Program-made: the position numbers and the translations under genes | Notes under the pieces: model-generated | What the model saw: the letters and a program-made list of their open reading frames with translations, nothing else | Databases searched by the model: none | What the model was told of the DNA's origin: nothing | DNA from: a virus | Taxonomy: Duplodnaviria > Heunggongvirae > Uroviricota > Caudoviricetes | IMG/VR virus record: IMGVR_UViG_3300032286_000505 | Coordinates: 64,001-90,549 of that record | Reading direction: 5' to 3' (one strand) | DNA length: 26,549 nucleotides | Shown here: piece by piece, positions 355 to 12,130 of the stretch | Position numbering within the stretch: position 1 is the stretch's first letter | Layout: every line of letters starts with the position of its first letter

Positions 355-426
355 TGTGGCCATGTTGTAATGGTAGCAACCTAGACTGTGACTCTGGTAG
401 TTCGGGTTCGAGCCCCGATGGTCACC
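355..426 (+). tRNA. tRNA-His(GTG); T at -1, C73, no encoded CCA
   Basis: GTGGCCA/TGGTCAC acceptor (356-362/419-425), loop CT-GTG-AC, T arm TCGGG-TTCGAGC-CCCGA; followed by CCT instead of CCA. Confidence 0.9.
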
Positions 427-440
427 CCTAAGAAGTTTAT

Positions 441-790: not shown

Positions 791-907
791 GCCGCTGTCG
801 TCTAATGGTTAGGACACTTATAAAAGTGACTCTGCAAGAGTACGTTCAGCAATTTAAAATTCCATTCGAAGGAAGTGATGGAGGTTCGAATCCTTCCAGC
901 GGCACCA
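791..907 (+). ncRNA. tRNA-like RNA (TCG anticodon loop) carrying a 42-nt insertion with the CAGCAA helix motif in permuted order (motif copy 1)
   Basis: Acceptor GCCGCTG/CAGCGGC-A-CCA, D and T arms intact. Deleting 818-859 (or 820-861) gives a 75-nt cloverleaf with stem CTTCC/GGAAG. Insert contains GTGACTCT-GCA-AGAGTAC-GTT-CAGCAA. Confidence 0.8.
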
Positions 908-3029: not shown

Positions 3030-3542
3030 ATGAAAATATGTCCAAAGTGTAATACAGAGCACGAAAAATCTGGAAAATACTGTTGTAGAAGTTGTGCTAA
3101 TAGCAGATCTTTTACAGCAGAATCAAAAGAAAAAAAGCGCAACAAAACATTGGCATTTTGGTCTCAGTTTGATGATGCTGGAAGAAAAGAGCACCATAAA
3201 AAGAAAATGGCGTTGTATGATTTTGACGAACATCAAAGGCGAGTACAAGAAGCAAATAGAAAACGAGAATGGAGTAAACCTTACGAAGAAATGAGTCATT
3301 CATCGGTTCGTAAAAGATTACTACATGAACGAAATCACACTTGCGAAGAATGCGGAACAGGCAGTGAATATAACGGTAAGCCGTTAAGTTTAGAACTAGA
3401 CCACATTGATGGAAACAATAAAAATAACAAGATTGAAAATTTAAGAATACTTTGTCCAAATTGTCACTCACAAACTCCAACGCACAGATCAAAGAATATT
3501 AAATATAAAAGATTGTTAGTAGAAAAGAATATTGGCATATAG
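3030..3542 (+). CDS. Free-standing HNH homing endonuclease with N-terminal Cys cluster
   Basis: CEECG...LELDHIDGNNKNNKIENLRILCPNCH HNH motif; N-term CPKC...CCRSC; sits between tRNA genes. Confidence 0.9.
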   Translation: MKICPKCNTEHEKSGKYCCRSCANSRSFTAESKEKKRNKTLAFWSQFDDAGRKEHHKKKMALYDFDEHQRRVQEANRKREWSKPYEEMSHSSVRKRLLHERNHTCEECGTGSEYNGKPLSLELDHIDGNNKNNKIENLRILCPNCHSQTPTHRSKNIKYKRLLVEKNIGI

Positions 3543-5860: not shown

Positions 5861-5919
5861 AGGTTAATTACAGCTATACACAATGGCGACTGCTAGGTCA
5901 CTAAACTAGTATTAACCTG
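5861..5919 (+). ncRNA. Helix-CAGCWA motif RNA, minimal copy (copy 2)
   Basis: AGGTTAA(5861-67)-TTA-CAGCTA ... A-TTAACCT(5912-18)-G; internal GACTGCTAG. Confidence 0.7.
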
Positions 5920-7966: not shown

Positions 7967-8057
7967 ACCTCTGTAGTTTAATGGTAAAACAGCGGATTTA
8001 TATCCCGTAGCAACAGATAATTGGTTAATGTGGGTTCGACTCCCGCCGGAGGTACCA
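7967..8057 (+). tRNA. tRNA with TAT anticodon (nominally Ile) and long variable arm
   Basis: ACCTCTG/CGGAGGT, loop TT-TAT-AT, 21-nt variable region AGCAACAGATAATTGGTTAAT, A73, CCA. Confidence 0.82.
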
Positions 8058-8058
8058 A

Positions 8059-8102
8059 TAGATAATATCAGTGAGAGGGTTCGATCCCCTCCGCTGGTAC
8101 CA
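8059..8102 (+). pseudogene. 3' fragment of the disrupted tRNA (variable remnant, T arm, acceptor 3' strand, ACCA)
   Basis: GAGGG-TTCGATC-CCCTC-CGCTGGT-A-CCA; pairs with 7317-7323. Confidence 0.72.
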
Positions 8103-8107
8103 TTTTT

Positions 8108-8223
8108 AGGATACATGCAGCAACGTCATTTATGACATGTTGGTTCGATTCCAACTCCACGCTTTTGCGTAGATCGCTCAATGGTAGAGCAATGGCTTAC
8201 ACGCCATCGAAAAAGGTATCCTG
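8108..8223 (+). ncRNA. Helix-CAGCAA motif RNA enclosing a circularly permuted tRNA-like domain (copy 3)
   Basis: AGGATAC-ATG-CAGCAA; hairpin GTCA/TGAC; T arm GTTGG-TTCGATT-CCAAC; acceptor TCCACGC-TTTT-GCGTAGA; D arm GCTC-AATGGTA-GAGC; hairpin ATGGC/GCCAT; GTATCCT-G. Confidence 0.85.
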
Positions 8224-8229
8224 TTTTAT

Positions 8230-8345
8230 TTTGTTATTCCGGACGCTCCGCAAGGAGAGGTGGTATCGAGCAGAGCGGCAACGTAGTTGTTATCGCGTCG
8301 TGAGGTTGTAGAACAATAAACTGACAAAATCTACAATATAACAAA
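8230..8345 (+). ncRNA. Unidentified multibranch structured RNA
   Basis: Outer stem TTTGTTAT/ATAACAAA, CTCC-GCAA-GGAG GNRA hairpin, TTGTAGA/TCTACAA stem. Confidence 0.5.
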
Positions 8346-8359
8346 TGGTTTGACCTCTT

Positions 8360-8478
8360 AGGTTCTTTTCAGCAATCTTATTAAAATCTTTCTGTAAAAA
8401 AGACGGGCCAGGTTCGAATCCTGGGCACTGCTTGGTCAGCGGTGTTGGTGTAGTGGTAGCACAAAAAATGAGAACCTG
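8360..8478 (+). ncRNA. Helix-CAGCAA motif RNA enclosing a complete circularly permuted tRNA with GTA anticodon loop (copy 4)
   Basis: AGGTTCT-TTT-CAGCAA; anticodon arm TCTTT-CTGTAAA-AAAGA; T arm CCAGG-TTCGAAT-CCTGG; acceptor GCACTGC...GCGGTGT closed by a loop; D arm GTGT-AGTGGTA-GCAC; AGAACCT-G. Confidence 0.88.
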
Positions 8479-8504
8479 TTATATCGGTAGATAAATAAAA
8501 ACAT

Positions 8505-8578
8505 GCGGGTATGATGTAAAGGTAACCTGATTGCTTGCCAAGCAATACATCCGAGTTCGATTCTCGGTACCCGCTCCA
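8505..8578 (+). tRNA. tRNA-Gly(GCC)
   Basis: GCGGGTA/TACCCGC, U73, loop TT-GCC-AA, CCA. Confidence 0.95.
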
Positions 8579-8581
8579 AAT

Positions 8582-8732
8582 AGGCCGGACCTGTATCCAT
8601 ATTCCGGCTCCGCTGACGCGAAAACAGGATGGGCTGCGCTCACGGGGTTTGATGGTTTCCTGACACAACAATAACTATCACTAATAACAAGGCCTTGCCC
8701 AATGGAACATAGTTCTACGGTGAGGTTTTCTC
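8582..8732 (+). ncRNA. Structured RNA, candidate manA RNA motif
   Basis: GCCGGA/TCCGGC stem with loop CCTG complementary to CAGG(8625-28); GATGGTT/AACTATC stem; AGGCC/GGCCT closure; tRNA-adjacent. Family call is from recollection, not a search. Confidence 0.5.
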
Positions 8733-9508: not shown

Positions 9509-9976
9509 ATGCCATGGATTGAAAACGTTGCCGCTGATGATATCCCAAAGAGGTTCCATCACGAAGCAGGTGAGAATAGTATGCTGATCAGCATTGTTGA
9601 TCCAGCAAGCTGGCGCCCTACTCCTGCACACAAGTTCAAAGAAATTCACAATTTTGAATTTCTAGACGTAGAAGCCAAGGACGAAGTATTAGAAGAAGCA
9701 ATGAAGTGCAGCCAAGAACAGGCCAACGAGCTTGTTCGACTGCTACAACATGCACTGGCTAACAGAATGAACGTTGTTGTTCATTGCTATGCAGGCATCT
9801 GCCGTAGTGGTGCTGTATGTGAAGTTGGAGTCATGCTGGGATTTGAAGATACCGGACGATTCCGTAGTCCAAACTTATTGGTCAAGCATCGTATGATGCG
9901 GGCTTTGGGTTGGACGTATGATGAAGATGAAAAGCCAAACATTGACGATTGGCGAACTTTTAGGAGTGTAGATTAA
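9509..9976 (+). CDS. Cys-based (CX5R) tyrosine/dual-specificity phosphatase-like protein
   Basis: VVVHCYAGICRSGAV active-site loop. Confidence 0.85.
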   Translation: MPWIENVAADDIPKRFHHEAGENSMLISIVDPASWRPTPAHKFKEIHNFEFLDVEAKDEVLEEAMKCSQEQANELVRLLQHALANRMNVVVHCYAGICRSGAVCEVGVMLGFEDTGRFRSPNLLVKHRMMRALGWTYDEDEKPNIDDWRTFRSVD

Positions 9977-10458
9977 TGCCGAAATGCTATCAATTGATCG
10001 GAGTGCCTGGTTCAGGCAAAAGTACCTGGGTAGCTGAACAAGATTGGGCAATAACCTGTTCTTGTATTAGCACAGACAAGTGGGTTGAAATCTATGCTAA
10101 GGAAGTGGGCCGAACTTACTCCGAAGTGTTTACAGATTTTATGCCCACTGCTGTAGATCTTATGGCCAAGGAAGTTGTTGTAGCTCGTGAATTAGGTCGT
10201 GATATTATTTGGGATCAAACTTCTACTTCGATTAAAAGCCGCAATAGGAAGTTCAACATGTTGCCAGACTACGAGCACATTGCTGTGGTGTTTAAGACAC
10301 CCGAGTACACAGAACTCATGCGTCGATTGGCCAGCCGGCCGGGCAAAGATATTCCAGATCATGTGATTGCCAGCATGATTGAAGGATTCCAAATGCCTAC
10401 AGAGGAAGAAGGTTTTGCACAAGTTTGGTTCGTCAATAACTGTTTTCCTTTGAGGTAA
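9976..10458 (+). CDS. P-loop kinase (AAA_33 / polynucleotide kinase-like)
   Basis: LIGVPGSGKSTW Walker A; IIWDQT; RLASR lid. Confidence 0.82.
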   Translation: MPKCYQLIGVPGSGKSTWVAEQDWAITCSCISTDKWVEIYAKEVGRTYSEVFTDFMPTAVDLMAKEVVVARELGRDIIWDQTSTSIKSRNRKFNMLPDYEHIAVVFKTPEYTELMRRLASRPGKDIPDHVIASMIEGFQMPTEEEGFAQVWFVNNCFPLR

Positions 10459-10463
10459 TTACC

Positions 10464-10488
10464 GCCCTGCTTGACAGGGCTTTCTTTT
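10464..10488 (+). terminator. Intrinsic terminator overlapping the next -35 box
   Basis: GCCCTG-CTTGA-CAGGGC-TTTCTTTT. Confidence 0.6.
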
Positions 10489-10499
10489 GATGTTATAAT
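10471..10499 (+). promoter_or_regulatory. sigma70-type promoter (extended -10)
   Basis: TTGACA-17nt-TATAAT with TG upstream. Confidence 0.8.
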
Positions 10500-10527
10500 A
10501 TATGCTTACACAGCAAAAGGATATAAA

Positions 10528-10701
10528 ATGGCCGGCAAAGCAAAATCAATCTACCTCACAGTTCTGCCCAAGGGTAAACATATGAGCGTGTTCAAGAAGG
10601 TCTTCTTCGAAGCCAAATCTTATAATGAATACGTCAAGACTGAAGAATTTAAAACTAAATGGCCTGCTGAACTATATGATATTGTAAAAGAGACATACTA
10701 A
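10528..10701 (+). CDS. Hypothetical protein (57 aa)
   Basis: AAAGGA RBS then ATG at 10528; the track start at 10471 is the -35 box. Confidence 0.72.
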   Translation: MAGKAKSIYLTVLPKGKHMSVFKKVFFEAKSYNEYVKTEEFKTKWPAELYDIVKETY

Positions 10702-11252
10702 TGAGAACATGGATAACCAGTGATTTACATTTTGGGCACACGAACATAATGAAGTTCTGCCCACAGTCACGTGCGCGGTTTCGCAATGACGTGAACTACA
10801 TGAACGAGCAAATGGTTGCAGAATGGAACTCATTTGTGCAACCGGAAGACCTTGTTTACATCTTAGGTGACGTTGCGTTCCTGCCAGCCCAAAAGGCTAC
10901 GGAATATATGCGCCGTTGTAATGGTCGTAAGATCCTAGTGCAAGGTAACCACGACCGCAAGTTGTTGAACGATCCTAGCTTCCGTTCGTGCTTCGAAGAA
11001 ATTCATCACTATTTGGATATAAATTATAACGGTCACAAGATTGTTATGTTACACTACCCAATCGCAGAATGGGACCAAATGCACCGCGGCGCACTACATT
11101 TTCACGGACACTTACACGGTGGTACTAGTGGAATGGAAGCCTTCCGTTGCCGCGATATGGGCATGGATGCTACAGGAATGATTGTTGTAGAAATGGAAAG
11201 AGCCATTTCAGACGCATTAACGGGCAAGATTAAAGGTCATCATACTGGTTGA
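10701..11252 (+). CDS. Calcineurin-like metallophosphoesterase
   Basis: SDLHFGH, LGDV, GNHD, HYP, HGHLH motifs. Confidence 0.9.
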   Translation: MRTWITSDLHFGHTNIMKFCPQSRARFRNDVNYMNEQMVAEWNSFVQPEDLVYILGDVAFLPAQKATEYMRRCNGRKILVQGNHDRKLLNDPSFRSCFEEIHHYLDINYNGHKIVMLHYPIAEWDQMHRGALHFHGHLHGGTSGMEAFRCRDMGMDATGMIVVEMERAISDALTGKIKGHHTG

Positions 11253-11277
11253 CAGCATGGTAAAACCATGCTATAAT
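11249..11277 (+). promoter_or_regulatory. sigma70-type promoter with spacer palindrome
   Basis: TTGACA-17nt-TATAAT; AGCATGG-TAAAA-CCATGCT. Confidence 0.85.
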
Positions 11278-11303
11278 ATACACTTACTAACAAGGAGAGT
11301 AGC

Positions 11304-11840
11304 ATGAAAGATTTTACAATGGACCAAAGTGGGATGGATATTGTGCGTAAGGCACAGGTCTATGCCATGGCTGCTCACGCCGCAGTTGGACAGAAGCGTA
11401 AGTATACCGGTGAGCCCTACATTGTTCACCCTGCCGAAGTTGCCAAGATCGTAGCCAGTGTTCCAGGTGCTACACCTGACATGGTTGCGGCTGCTTGGTT
11501 GCATGATGTTGTGGAAGACACTGGTTGCACATTTACTGACATCCATATGGCGTTCGGTATCGACATTGCTACTTTGGTTGGATGGTTGACTGACGTGTCT
11601 AAGCCCGAAGATGGCAATCGTGCTCATCGTAAGGCCATGGACCGTGAGCATACTGCGGCGGCCCCTGCTGAAGCACAGACCATCAAGTTGGCTGATTTGA
11701 TCTCCAACAGCCGTAGCATCATGGCACACGATCCTGCTTTCGCTAGGACTTACTTAGAAGAAAAGCGTTTGATGTTAGCTGTAATGACTCGTGGTGATGC
11801 AGGTTTGCACGCCGAAGCTAGCCGGTTCGTGGGTGTATGA
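11304..11840 (+). CDS. HD-domain hydrolase, RelA/SpoT hydrolase (Mesh1/SAH)-like
   Basis: AHAAVGQKRKYTGEPYIVHP...AWLHDVVEDT...IKLADLISN. Confidence 0.85.
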   Translation: MKDFTMDQSGMDIVRKAQVYAMAAHAAVGQKRKYTGEPYIVHPAEVAKIVASVPGATPDMVAAAWLHDVVEDTGCTFTDIHMAFGIDIATLVGWLTDVSKPEDGNRAHRKAMDREHTAAAPAEAQTIKLADLISNSRSIMAHDPAFARTYLEEKRLMLAVMTRGDAGLHAEASRFVGV

Positions 11841-12130
11841 TTGATTTAGACGTTAATAGTTTTTATCCGCATACTCCTATGAACTGGTTTACTAAACGAC
11901 CCCGTAGTTTAGAACTGCGGGTTCGAGAAGAACTTGCTCCTCAGAAATACACTGTGTATTATTCCGGTGGTGATTGGTGGGAAGACAAGGACGAAATGAC
12001 TGCATGGTGCTCGAAACAGTTTGGACACAGAAACGAAGGATATAACAATCCACGCTGGAGTCCGGGACCTTTCGAGTTCTGTTTTAAAAATCAAAAGGAC
12101 GCCGTGTTCTTTATTTTAAAGTGGGGTTAA
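11837..12130 (+). CDS. Hypothetical protein
   Basis: ATGA coupling to the upstream gene; C-term AVFFILKWG. Confidence 0.72.
   Translation: MIDLDVNSFYPHTPMNWFTKRPRSLELRVREELAPQKYTVYYSGGDWWEDKDEMTAWCSKQFGHRNEGYNNPRWSPGPFEFCFKNQKDAVFFILKWG

What the first reader, a model, noticed from the sequence alone, without database searches (positions are those of the whole stretch)
8360..8478. Complete circularly permuted tRNA (GTA loop) in a phage, closed by the CAGCAA helix
Seen: the order is anticodon arm (8387-8403), short variable, T arm (8408-8424), acceptor 3' strand (8425-8431), a short loop, acceptor 5' strand (8439-8445), D arm (8448-8462). Joining A8463 to T8387 and opening the acceptor loop gives a flawless cloverleaf. 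The body is not bacterial Tyr-like (short variable loop, T at 73). Established: permuted tRNA genes are known in Cyanidioschyzon and Thermofilum, matured via circular intermediates, and YrlA RNAs are permuted tRNA mimics. Inference: this is either a tRNA mimic or decoy for anticodon nucleases, or a precursor that is cut, ligated and reopened. No ordinary tRNA-Tyr occurs in this window.
Basis: partly seen in the sequence, partly recalled or inferred. Interest (0 to 1): 0.85.

Follow-up and report, generated by a model that had tools for sequence, protein, structure and literature searches.

The report
Phage tRNA mimic on Ro60-like handle
This is a real, widely conserved phage RNA that contains every part of a tRNA in rearranged order, with its amino-acid-accepting end capped, and it most likely serves as a tRNA look-alike partner of a neighbouring Ro60-like protein rather than as a working tRNA.

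Summary
At 8387-8463 the order is anticodon arm, T arm, capped acceptor stem, D arm; rejoining 8463 to 8387 gives a cloverleaf that ARAGORN calls tRNA-Tyr(GTA).

It is not a one-off. A covariance model finds 71 full-length copies in viral contigs. All five helices covary: 97% of cells are paired and 23 of 28 pairs change on both sides.

The tRNA body sits on a "handle": a 7-bp closing helix, UUCAGCAAY and an A-rich strand. The same handle carries bare anticodon hairpins in about 60-nt RNAs. It also sits as a 26/27 insert in ordinary tRNAs, here at 791-904.

Handle RNAs flank a DUF2828 gene at 12995-14386, whose model matches Ro60 structures over its full length.

Several points argue against a working tRNA:
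- no CCA is encoded, whereas 44 of 45 tRNAs in this contig have it;
- the capping loop is conserved and pairs with an upstream leader (a covarying pseudoknot);
- the anticodon changes within identical bodies;
- an ordinary tRNA-Tyr lies just upstream of the window.

Best reading: a YrlA-like tRNA mimic with a different handle and partner protein. I found no description in Rfam or the papers searched. This scan has noted the family before on other DNA.

The parts
8351..8355 (+). Leader strand (TGACC) that pairs with the acceptor-capping loop GGTCA at 8434-8438, forming a pseudoknot
   Evidence: Loop and leader change together across relatives: TTGGTC with GACCA, GTGGTA with TACCA, GATAGGT with ACCTA, GATGGGA with TCCCA, TTCAT with ATGAA, TTTGGTCA with TGACCAAA. 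Mean longest complement is 3.96 nt, against 3.13 (sd 0.16) for shuffled partners.
8360..8366 (+). Handle: 5' strand of the 7-bp closing helix (AGGTTCT)
   Evidence: Pairs with 8471-8477. 6 of 7 pairs show changes on both sides in 68 distinct relatives, and 98.9% of cells are paired.
8367..8386 (+). 5' joiner carrying the invariant motif TTCAGCAAT (8368-8376) and an A/T-rich run
   Evidence: Columns T25-A32 are invariant in 47 aligned relatives. The same motif is found in mini RNAs and in the 26/27 insert of tRNA 791-904.
8387..8403 (+). Anticodon-like arm: 5-bp stem and 7-nt loop CTGTAAA (GTA at 8394-8396)
   Evidence: All 5 stem pairs covary. The loop triplet varies among relatives while C32, U33, A37 and A38 are kept.
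8404..8407 (+). Short variable region (CGGG); its last base is position 48 of the Levitt pair
   Evidence: Positions 15 and 48 co-vary: A-U 39, G-G 19, G-C 3, A-A 6, G-A 1. U48 occurs only with A15.
8408..8424 (+). T arm (CCAGG TTCGAAT CCTGG)
   Evidence: 100% of cells are paired and 3 of 5 pairs covary.
8425..8445 (+). Acceptor stem closed into a hairpin: 3' strand 8425-8431, capping loop TTGGTCA 8432-8438, 5' strand 8439-8445. No CCA.
   Evidence: All 7 pairs covary. The loop TTGGTC is conserved. 44 of 45 ordinary tRNAs of the contig encode CCA.
8446..8463 (+). U8, G9, D arm (GTGT AGTGGTA GCAC) and A26
   Evidence: U8-A14 is kept in 68 of 68 relatives. D-stem cells are 100% paired.
8464..8470 (+). 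A-rich 3' joiner (AAAAATG)
   Evidence: Conserved as AAAAA(A/T)G in relatives. The same strand is present in mini RNAs and in the insert of tRNA 791-904.
8471..8481 (+). Handle: 3' strand of the closing helix (AGAACCT, 8471-8477) followed by conserved GTTA
   Evidence: GTTA also forms the hairpin loop of the unpermuted insert form in relatives.
12995..14386 (+). Gene of the probable protein partner: DUF2828 + DUF7788, Ro60-like ring plus vWA domain
   Evidence: Pfam. The AF2 model (pLDDT 76.6) has Ro60/TROVE structures as its top 13 PDB matches over full length, E 3e-8 to 7e-5. Mini handle RNAs lie at 12918-12969 and 14398-14561.

Best explanation
The stretch 8351-8481 (+) encodes a structured non-coding RNA that is transcribed with the tRNA array. 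It has two modules.

The first is a 'handle': a 7-bp closing helix, the single-stranded motif UUCAGCAAY on the 5' side, and an A-rich strand on the 3' side.

The second is a complete tRNA body opened between positions 26 and 27. Its acceptor end is closed by a conserved loop that is locked to an upstream leader by a pseudoknot. As encoded it cannot accept an amino acid, but it displays a tRNA elbow and a canonical anticodon loop.

By analogy with Y RNAs of the YrlA type, the handle is most likely the binding site of the phage's Ro60-like (DUF2828) ring protein. The tRNA-shaped module would then bring tRNA-recognising proteins to that particle. Candidates are host anticodon nucleases, which it would soak up as a decoy, or the neighbouring end-healing enzymes.

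Shown here: the fold, its conservation and covariation, the shared handle family, the capped end, and the genomic linkage to the Ro60-like gene.

Inferred: protein binding at the handle, and the decoy or adaptor role.
For: Structure:
- The MFE fold gives all five helices.
- In 68 distinct relatives 97.3% of cells are paired, 23 of 28 pairs change on both sides, and slid controls reach only 38-50%.
- G-U pairs are common, which fits an RNA of the + strand.
- tRNA tertiary signature is kept: U8-A14 in 68 of 68, and the 15:48 pair co-varies.

Evidence against aminoacylation:
- no CCA is encoded, against 44 of 45 ordinary tRNAs;
- the capping loop is conserved and covaries with the leader;
- the 1-72 position is unpaired in 18 of 68 relatives.

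No coherent tRNA identity:
- identical acceptor hairpins carry ACG/GCG/GGA, GAA/GTA/TGA, or GAA/GTA;
- the variable region is short and position 73 is U;
- an ordinary tRNA-Tyr is present nearby.

Handle family:
- the same handle carries bare anticodon-like hairpins in about 60-nt RNAs, with loops CUUUUAA x15, CUUCUAA x9 and others;
- it also sits in a 26/27 insert of tRNAs.

Protein link:
- the DUF2828 model matches Ro60 over full length;
- handle RNAs flank the gene here and in the cultured Synechococcus phage BUCT-ZZ01;
- a DUF2828 homologue lies in 31 of 118 short loci and in 5 of 5 large carrier genomes.

YrlA has the same module order (V hairpin, T arm, closed acceptor, D arm) and lies beside Ro60 genes in bacteria and phages (PMC4201824).
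Against: - No binding or expression experiment exists. RNA-library contigs only show presence in genomic order, and they may contain DNA.
- The handle motif is not the GNCGAAN0-1G / CGAA motif of known Y RNAs. No Rfam family matches. The protein does not hit Pfam TROVE.
- The gene lies 4.5 kb from the Ro60-like gene, and in many genomes the two are further apart.
- The anticodon loop is more canonical than a mimic strictly needs.
- An unpermuted sibling with CCA exists (791-904).
- The same phage carries a true permuted tmRNA gene. Both points keep a maturation pathway conceivable.
- Folding energy is not exceptional (z = -0.97).
- There is no control for how often large phages without this RNA carry DUF2828.
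Confidence: 0.62

Rival explanations
1. It is a true permuted tRNA gene. The transcript is cut at the acceptor loop by RNase P and a 3' nuclease, and CCA is added. It then either stays as a two-piece tRNA held by the acceptor and handle helices, as in two-piece tmRNA, or is cut at 26/27, ligated through a circular intermediate and reopened. The product would decode UAY codons.
For: - The rejoined sequence is a perfect cloverleaf with U33 and A37, and tertiary pairs are kept.
- The sibling tRNA 791-904 has the same handle at 26/27, normal ends and CCA.
- The same contig holds a genuine permuted tmRNA gene: RF01850 at 121 bits and RF04321 at 104 bits.
- Kinase and phosphoesterase genes that could heal RNA ends lie 1-3 kb downstream and co-occur with the element.
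- YrlA is an RNase P substrate in vitro (PMC4201824).
Against: - No CCA is encoded, against 44 of 45 ordinary tRNAs.
- The capping loop is conserved and pseudoknotted.
- There is no bulge-helix-bulge. The 26/27 ends lie 7 and 20 nt from the helix.
- The anticodon changes within identical bodies, including Ser and Tyr anticodons on a body without a long variable arm.
- An ordinary tRNA-Tyr is present.
- Handle RNAs without any acceptor stem are the commonest members.
- RtcB is absent from 5 of 5 carrier genomes, and PF09414 ligase is absent from a complete 364-kb one.
Confidence: 0.15
2. It is a stand-alone decoy or processing element that does not depend on the Ro60-like protein. In this reading the handle is a folding clamp or an RNase entry site that releases units from the tRNA-array transcript, and the tRNA mimic acts alone, for example by titrating an anticodon nuclease or a tRNA-modifying enzyme.
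For: - Conserved flanks (TTTTA before the helix, GTTA after it) look like processing signals.
- Elements occur in tandem inside tRNA arrays.
- Many loci show no DUF2828 gene within about 5 kb.
- The displayed loops (Lys UUU, Arg UCU, Asn GUU, Tyr GUA, Met CAU) are types known as anticodon-nuclease targets. That last point rests on my own knowledge and was not tested.
Against: - Handle RNAs directly flank the Ro60-like gene in two distant phages.
- 5 of 5 large carrier genomes encode the protein.
- The invariant single-stranded CAGCAA next to a terminal stem is the layout of a Ro60 site on Y RNAs (PMC4201824).
Confidence: 0.15
3. It is a non-functional remnant of two adjacent tRNA genes: a tandem duplication that lost its outer halves.
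For: Spacers of 7-10 nt between neighbouring tRNAs in this array resemble the 7-nt loop.
Against: - There are 68 distinct copies with compensatory changes in every helix.
- The break is at exactly the same place, 26/27, in all of them.
- The flanks are conserved, and the family spreads across very different phages.
Confidence: 0.02

Closest known systems
YrlA-type bacterial and phage Y RNAs bound by Ro60/Rsr (Chen et al. 2014, PMC4201824)
   Same: - The terminal stem is formed by the 5' and 3' ends, with a conserved single-stranded motif on the 5' side.
- The internal order is hairpin, T arm, closed acceptor stem, D arm.
- tRNA tertiary pairs are kept, including 15:48 covariation.
- The gene lies on the same strand near a Ro60-type ring protein gene.
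- Several different RNAs occur per locus.
   Different: - The motif is UUCAGCAAY, not GNCGAAN0-1G, and there is no Rfam match.
- The partner is a DUF2828/DUF7788 protein that resembles Ro60 by fold only.
- The hairpin before the T arm is a full anticodon arm, so the whole cloverleaf is present.
- The acceptor cap is pseudoknotted to a leader.
- The same handle also carries bare anticodon hairpins and is inserted into real tRNAs.
Circularly permuted tRNA genes of Cyanidioschyzon merolae and Thermofilum pendens
   Same: The 3' half precedes the 5' half. A short linker joins the two acceptor strands. Rejoining gives a perfect cloverleaf.
   Different: - There is no bulge-helix-bulge at the break, and the break at 26/27 sits on a conserved handle.
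- No CCA is encoded and the linker is conserved and base-paired.
- The host is bacterial and lacks the splicing endonuclease.
- The anticodon is unstable among close relatives.
Two-piece (permuted) tmRNA, present in this same phage contig
   Same: The permuted tRNA-like domain has the T arm and acceptor 3' strand upstream of the acceptor 5' strand.
   Different: tmRNA has a tag reading frame and pseudoknots, and its intervening segment is excised. Here there is no coding part, but there is a full anticodon arm.
Phage-encoded tRNAs that resist or replace tRNAs cut by host nucleases (T5, mycobacteriophages), and T4 Pnkp/Rnl1 repair
   Same: All lie in phage tRNA arrays and concern anticodon loops. 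End-healing enzyme genes lie nearby.
   Different: Those are chargeable tRNAs or repair enzymes. This RNA has a blocked acceptor end and would act by mimicry.

Membership tests
Canonical tRNA (Rfam RF00005 / ARAGORN) | Contiguous cloverleaf in the gene order acceptor, D, anticodon, T, acceptor | tested here: not met
   No call at 8360-8478 by ARAGORN or Rfam, even at E <= 10. Only the rejoined sequence is called tRNA-Tyr.
Canonical tRNA (Rfam RF00005 / ARAGORN) | Free acceptor end with CCA, encoded in this phage's tRNAs | tested here: not met
   The acceptor is closed by TTGGTCA with no CCA. 44 of 45 ordinary tRNAs of the contig encode CCA.
Circularly permuted tRNA gene (C. merolae / Thermofilum type) | 3' half upstream of 5' half, with acceptor strands joined by a short linker | tested here: met
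Circularly permuted tRNA gene (C. merolae / Thermofilum type) | Bulge-helix-bulge motif formed by leader and trailer at the junction | tested here: not met
   By reading the sequence, the helix is 7 bp, and the 26 and 27 ends lie 7 nt and 20 nt from it, in conserved single strands.
Circularly permuted tRNA gene (C. merolae / Thermofilum type) | Circular intermediate or junction-bearing mature tRNA | tested here: inconclusive
   RNA-library contigs show only the genomic order and no 8463-to-8387 joint. Contigs cannot show rare or small forms.
Circularly permuted tRNA gene (C. merolae / Thermofilum type) | RNA ligase available for rejoining | tested here: inconclusive
   RtcB is found in 0 of 5 carrier genomes, and PF09414 in 3 of 5. 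Host enzymes were not examined.
YrlA-type Y RNA | Terminal stem, then hairpin, T arm, closed acceptor stem, D arm | tested here: met
   compared with the description in PMC4201824.
YrlA-type Y RNA | GNCGAAN0-1G (CGAA) motif near the 5' end | tested here: not met
   The invariant motif here is TTCAGCAAY.
YrlA-type Y RNA | Match to the curated RNA family model | tested here: not met
   cmscan of 8250-8600 against all 4227 Rfam families at E <= 10 gives no Y RNA or YrlA match.
YrlA-type Y RNA | tRNA-like tertiary pairs with 15:48 covariation | tested here: met
   A15-U48 39, G15-G48 19, G15-C48 3; U8-A14 in 68 of 68.
YrlA-type Y RNA | Encoded beside a Ro60 (TROVE) gene on the same strand | tested here: inconclusive
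   There is no Pfam TROVE hit in the contig. A DUF2828 protein with a Ro60 fold lies 4.5 kb downstream on the same strand, and other handle RNAs abut it.
YrlA-type Y RNA | Bound by the Ro60 protein | not testable with these tools
   Needs a pull-down or EMSA.

The most novel reading that the evidence does not exclude
Phages of several lineages carry a programmable RNA display system. One protein-binding handle presents interchangeable tRNA parts: bare anticodon loops, elbows, or, as here, a whole capped tRNA. Together with a Ro60-like ring and end-healing enzymes, these parts would intercept or repair the damage done by host anticodon nucleases. The anticodon triplet of each decoy would evolve to track the defence it neutralises. 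This would be a new class of RNA-based anti-defence particle. It would also give DUF2828 proteins, which occur in bacteria and eukaryotes too, their first RNA partners.
Probability: 0.3. Interest if true: 0.9.

Novelty: new variant of a known kind. Interest (0 to 1): 0.72.

Why it matters
tRNA mimicry by Y RNAs is known from a few bacteria and phages, but what the mimic is for remains open. This family is large and diverse, and it carries a complete anticodon arm whose triplet changes quickly. That points directly at the anticodon as the working part.

The family is linked to an uncharacterised Ro60-like protein family and to RNA end-healing genes. It also occurs in a cultured phage-host pair, BUCT-ZZ01 on Synechococcus elongatus PCC 7942, so the question can be tested at the bench.

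It also matters for annotation. tRNA finders miss these genes, and a reader could mistake them for permuted or broken tRNAs.

Tried and rejected
- A megablast search of 8100-8700 against 50,697 phage records found nothing. Only the sensitive blastn mode found BUCT-ZZ01.
- Rfam at E <= 10 gave only chance-level hits. One was an 18.6-bit match to Dictyostelium Class I RNA, well under its 41.5-bit threshold.
- Pfam TROVE, RtcB, T4 Rnl1 and PF09414 were sought in the window's own contig and none was found. The contig is only about 26% of the genome, and the Rnl1 search rang in no control genome, so this says little.
- The seed pattern was scanned in bacterial and archaeal genomes. It gave 119 hits. 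Of the 80 loci searched with model R1, none matched, so I treated these hits as chance and used them as a negative control.
- Public RNA runs held only small shares and were available only as contigs. They cover the element in genomic order in relatives and show no 26/27 joint. They cannot show ends, strand, abundance or rare forms.
- I considered a K-turn reading of the handle and a self-cleaving ribozyme (hammerhead, twister, pistol, hatchet). Neither the sequence signatures nor Rfam support them.
- I considered a reading as an attP or tRNA-fragment recombination site. The strand-specific G-U pairs and the covariation argue for an RNA.
- A minus-strand ORF at 8381-8671 (96 aa, TTG start) runs antisense through tRNA-Gly. 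I treated it as spurious.

Full report
**The observation.** In order it holds:
- an anticodon-type hairpin at 8387-8403, with a 5-bp stem and loop CTGTAAA;
- a 4-nt variable region;
- a canonical T arm at 8408-8424;
- the acceptor 3' strand at 8425-8431;
- a 7-nt loop;
- the acceptor 5' strand at 8439-8445;
- U8 and G9, then a D arm at 8448-8462, then A26 at 8463.

When 8439-8463 is placed in front of 8387-8432, ARAGORN calls tRNA-Tyr(gta) with a regular cloverleaf. In genomic order, neither ARAGORN nor Rfam reports anything there. The whole unit is clamped by AGGTTCT (8360-8366) pairing with AGAACCT (8471-8477). The minimum-energy fold of 8348-8482 gives all five helices, although its energy is not unusual (z = -0.97).

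**It is a family, not an accident.** A sensitive search found an unannotated homologue inside the tRNA array of the cultured Synechococcus phage BUCT-ZZ01, with compensatory changes in the acceptor, D and closing helices.

A scan of viral contigs with a pattern from the conserved motif and the T loop returned more than 118 loci. Most hold the same architecture.

I built covariance model R1 from 47 copies. It finds 71 full-length matches at E <= 1e-13 in 0.70 Mb of these loci. It finds none at E <= 1e-5 in 0.59 Mb of bacterial and archaeal loci that share the seed pattern, which serves as a negative control.

On the 68 distinct copies:
- 97.3% of cells form standard pairs;
- 23 of 28 pairs show changes on both sides;
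- slid controls reach only 38-50% pairing.

This alignment was fitted to the model, so the figures lean towards the structure. The independent MAFFT alignment shows the same helices. Frequent G-U pairs place the RNA on the + strand, like the tRNA array.

**The tRNA shape is under selection, but the acceptor end is not free.**
- U8-A14 is kept in all 68 copies.
- The 15:48 pair co-varies: A-U 39, G-G 19, G-C 3. U48 occurs only with A15.
- This is the same argument Chen et al. used for YrlA (PMC4201824). The counts are not corrected for relatedness.

Against a working acceptor end:
- The loop that closes the acceptor stem is conserved (TTGGTC) and carries no CCA, while 44 of 45 ordinary tRNA genes of this contig encode CCA.
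- The loop is complementary to a leader 3-4 nt upstream of the closing helix. Here that is TGACC 8351-8355 with GGTCA 8434-8438.
- Loop and leader change together in relatives: GTGGTA/TACCA, GATAGGT/ACCTA, GATGGGA/TCCCA, TTCAT/ATGAA, TTTGGTCA/TGACCAAA.

I read this as a pseudoknot that caps the acceptor end.

**The 'anticodon' does not behave like a decoding anticodon.** C32, U33, A37 and A38 are kept, but the triplet varies. GTA is commonest; GGA, GAA, GCA, GCG, ACG, ATG, TAG, TGA and GCT also occur.

Copies with identical acceptor hairpins carry ACG/GCG/GGA, or GAA/GTA/TGA, or GAA/GTA. A body with a 4-nt variable region cannot follow the bacterial rules for Tyr or Ser; that is established knowledge, not tested here. 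An ordinary tRNA-Tyr with a long variable arm, A73 and CCA lies just before the window.

**The handle is the common denominator.** The closing helix, UUCAGCAAY and the A-rich strand also occur in three other settings:
- About 60-nt RNAs whose only cargo is a hairpin. It is often a canonical anticodon loop: CUUUUAA 15 times, CUUCUAA 9 times, plus CUGUUAA, CUCAUAA and others.
- A second, less regular permuted tRNA-like RNA at about 8108-8222.
- Inserts between positions 26 and 27 of otherwise normal tRNAs with CCA. Here this is 791-904, which Rfam scores as tRNA at 47 bits with a 53-nt insertion, and it also occurs in many relatives.

The permuted RNA and the insert-bearing tRNA are therefore circular permutations of one architecture: a tRNA with an extra arm at 26/27.

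**The likely protein partner.** The ORF at 12995-14386 is a DUF2828 + DUF7788 protein. Its AlphaFold model (pLDDT 76.6) has Ro60/TROVE structures as its 13 best PDB matches, over full length. These include Thermus phage phiLo Ro60, Xenopus Ro60 with RNA, and Deinococcus Rsr (E 3e-8 to 7e-5, TM about 0.55).

Linkage between this gene and the handle RNAs:
- Mini handle RNAs lie 26 nt before and 12 nt after this gene.
- In BUCT-ZZ01 the homologous gene (UTS52122.1, annotated hypothetical) has three handle RNAs upstream and two insert-type tRNAs downstream.
- A homologue lies in 31 of 118 short loci.
- It is also present in 5 of 5 large genomes that carry the permuted RNA, 3 of them complete.

A phosphatase, an AAA_33 kinase, a calcineurin-like phosphoesterase and an HD protein lie at 9509-11840, with a second calcineurin-like phosphoesterase at 14903-15661. 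The first four of these gene types recur in the related loci.

**Comparison with the known.** YrlA RNAs have the same order (hairpin, T arm, closed acceptor, D arm, closed by the ends). They lie beside Ro60 genes in 254 bacteria and 22 phages (PMC4201824). Phage Ro60 with Y-like RNAs has been studied structurally (PMC12135203).

The present RNA differs in several ways:
- its motif is UUCAGCAAY, not GNCGAA/CGAA;
- its protein family is different;
- it has a complete anticodon arm;
- it has the pseudoknot cap;
- its handle is used modularly.

It matches no Rfam family, and I found no description in the papers searched.

**The splicing or two-piece tRNA model.** It cannot be excluded. The same contig has a true permuted tmRNA gene. 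However, this model lacks a bulge-helix-bulge, CCA, a consistent ligase, a stable identity, and any junction read (a weak test).

**Verdict.** This is a real, conserved, tRNA-mimicking non-coding RNA, best filed as a new variant of the Y RNA / YrlA kind. The partner protein and the function are inferred, not shown. Other agents of this scan reached a similar reading of the handle family on other genomes. I verified the Ro60-like fold and the linkage myself.

Noticed in passing
contig 11502-11849 (outside the window; locus L245:303-650): The phage carries a circularly permuted (two-piece) tmRNA gene. It matches Rfam beta_tmRNA at 121 bits and tmRNA_permuted at 104 bits, both above threshold. 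ARAGORN gives the tag ANDEAFLMAA.
   Followed up: partly
window 791-904: A tRNA with normal ends and CCA (anticodon loop ATTCGAA, TCG) carries an insert of about 42 nt between positions 26 and 27. The insert is the same handle, closed by a loop. ARAGORN misses it; Rfam scores it 47 bits with a 53-nt insertion.
   Followed up: partly
window 8108-8222: A second handle RNA (AGGATAC/GTATCCT, GCAGCAAC). It holds a T arm, a closed acceptor, a D arm, and then a hairpin with a 6-nt loop. R1 scores it 37.7 bits.
   Followed up: partly
window 12918-12969, 14398-14561, 5861-5918; contig 57812-57872, 62016-62075, 62164-62218: Further handle RNAs with small or large cargo, all on the + strand. Two abut the Ro60-like gene. 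The 162-nt one at 14398-14561 has an unexplained, larger cargo.
   Followed up: partly
window 9509-11840 and 14903-15661: A run of genes for a DSP-type phosphatase, an AAA_33 kinase, two calcineurin-like phosphoesterases and an HD protein. It is a possible RNA end-healing set. Homologues of the first four (9509-11840) recur near the RNA in related contigs.
   Followed up: partly
window 8361-8423: A weak Rfam match to Dictyostelium Class I RNA (RF01414, 18.6 bits, E 0.6, threshold 41.5). Its signature is also a terminal stem followed by ...ACAGCAA. It may be chance.
   Followed up: no
L125 (BUCT-ZZ01 ON615601.1 111141-111623 and 113028-113385): Both unannotated intergenic regions around the DUF2828 gene of a cultured cyanophage are full of handle RNAs and insert-type tRNAs (motif variant TTCTGCAAT).
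   Followed up: partly
window 8231-8358: An RNA-library contig of a relative joins 8231 to 8358 with GACCA in between. That relative therefore has the two handle RNAs in direct tandem, without the 126-nt spacer.
   Followed up: no
window 356-428 and 7967-8057: tRNA-His is the only ordinary tRNA of the contig without an encoded CCA. tRNA-Ile(TAT) is unusually long at 91 nt.
   Followed up: no
window 3030-3542: An HNH endonuclease ORF sits inside the tRNA array.
   Followed up: no
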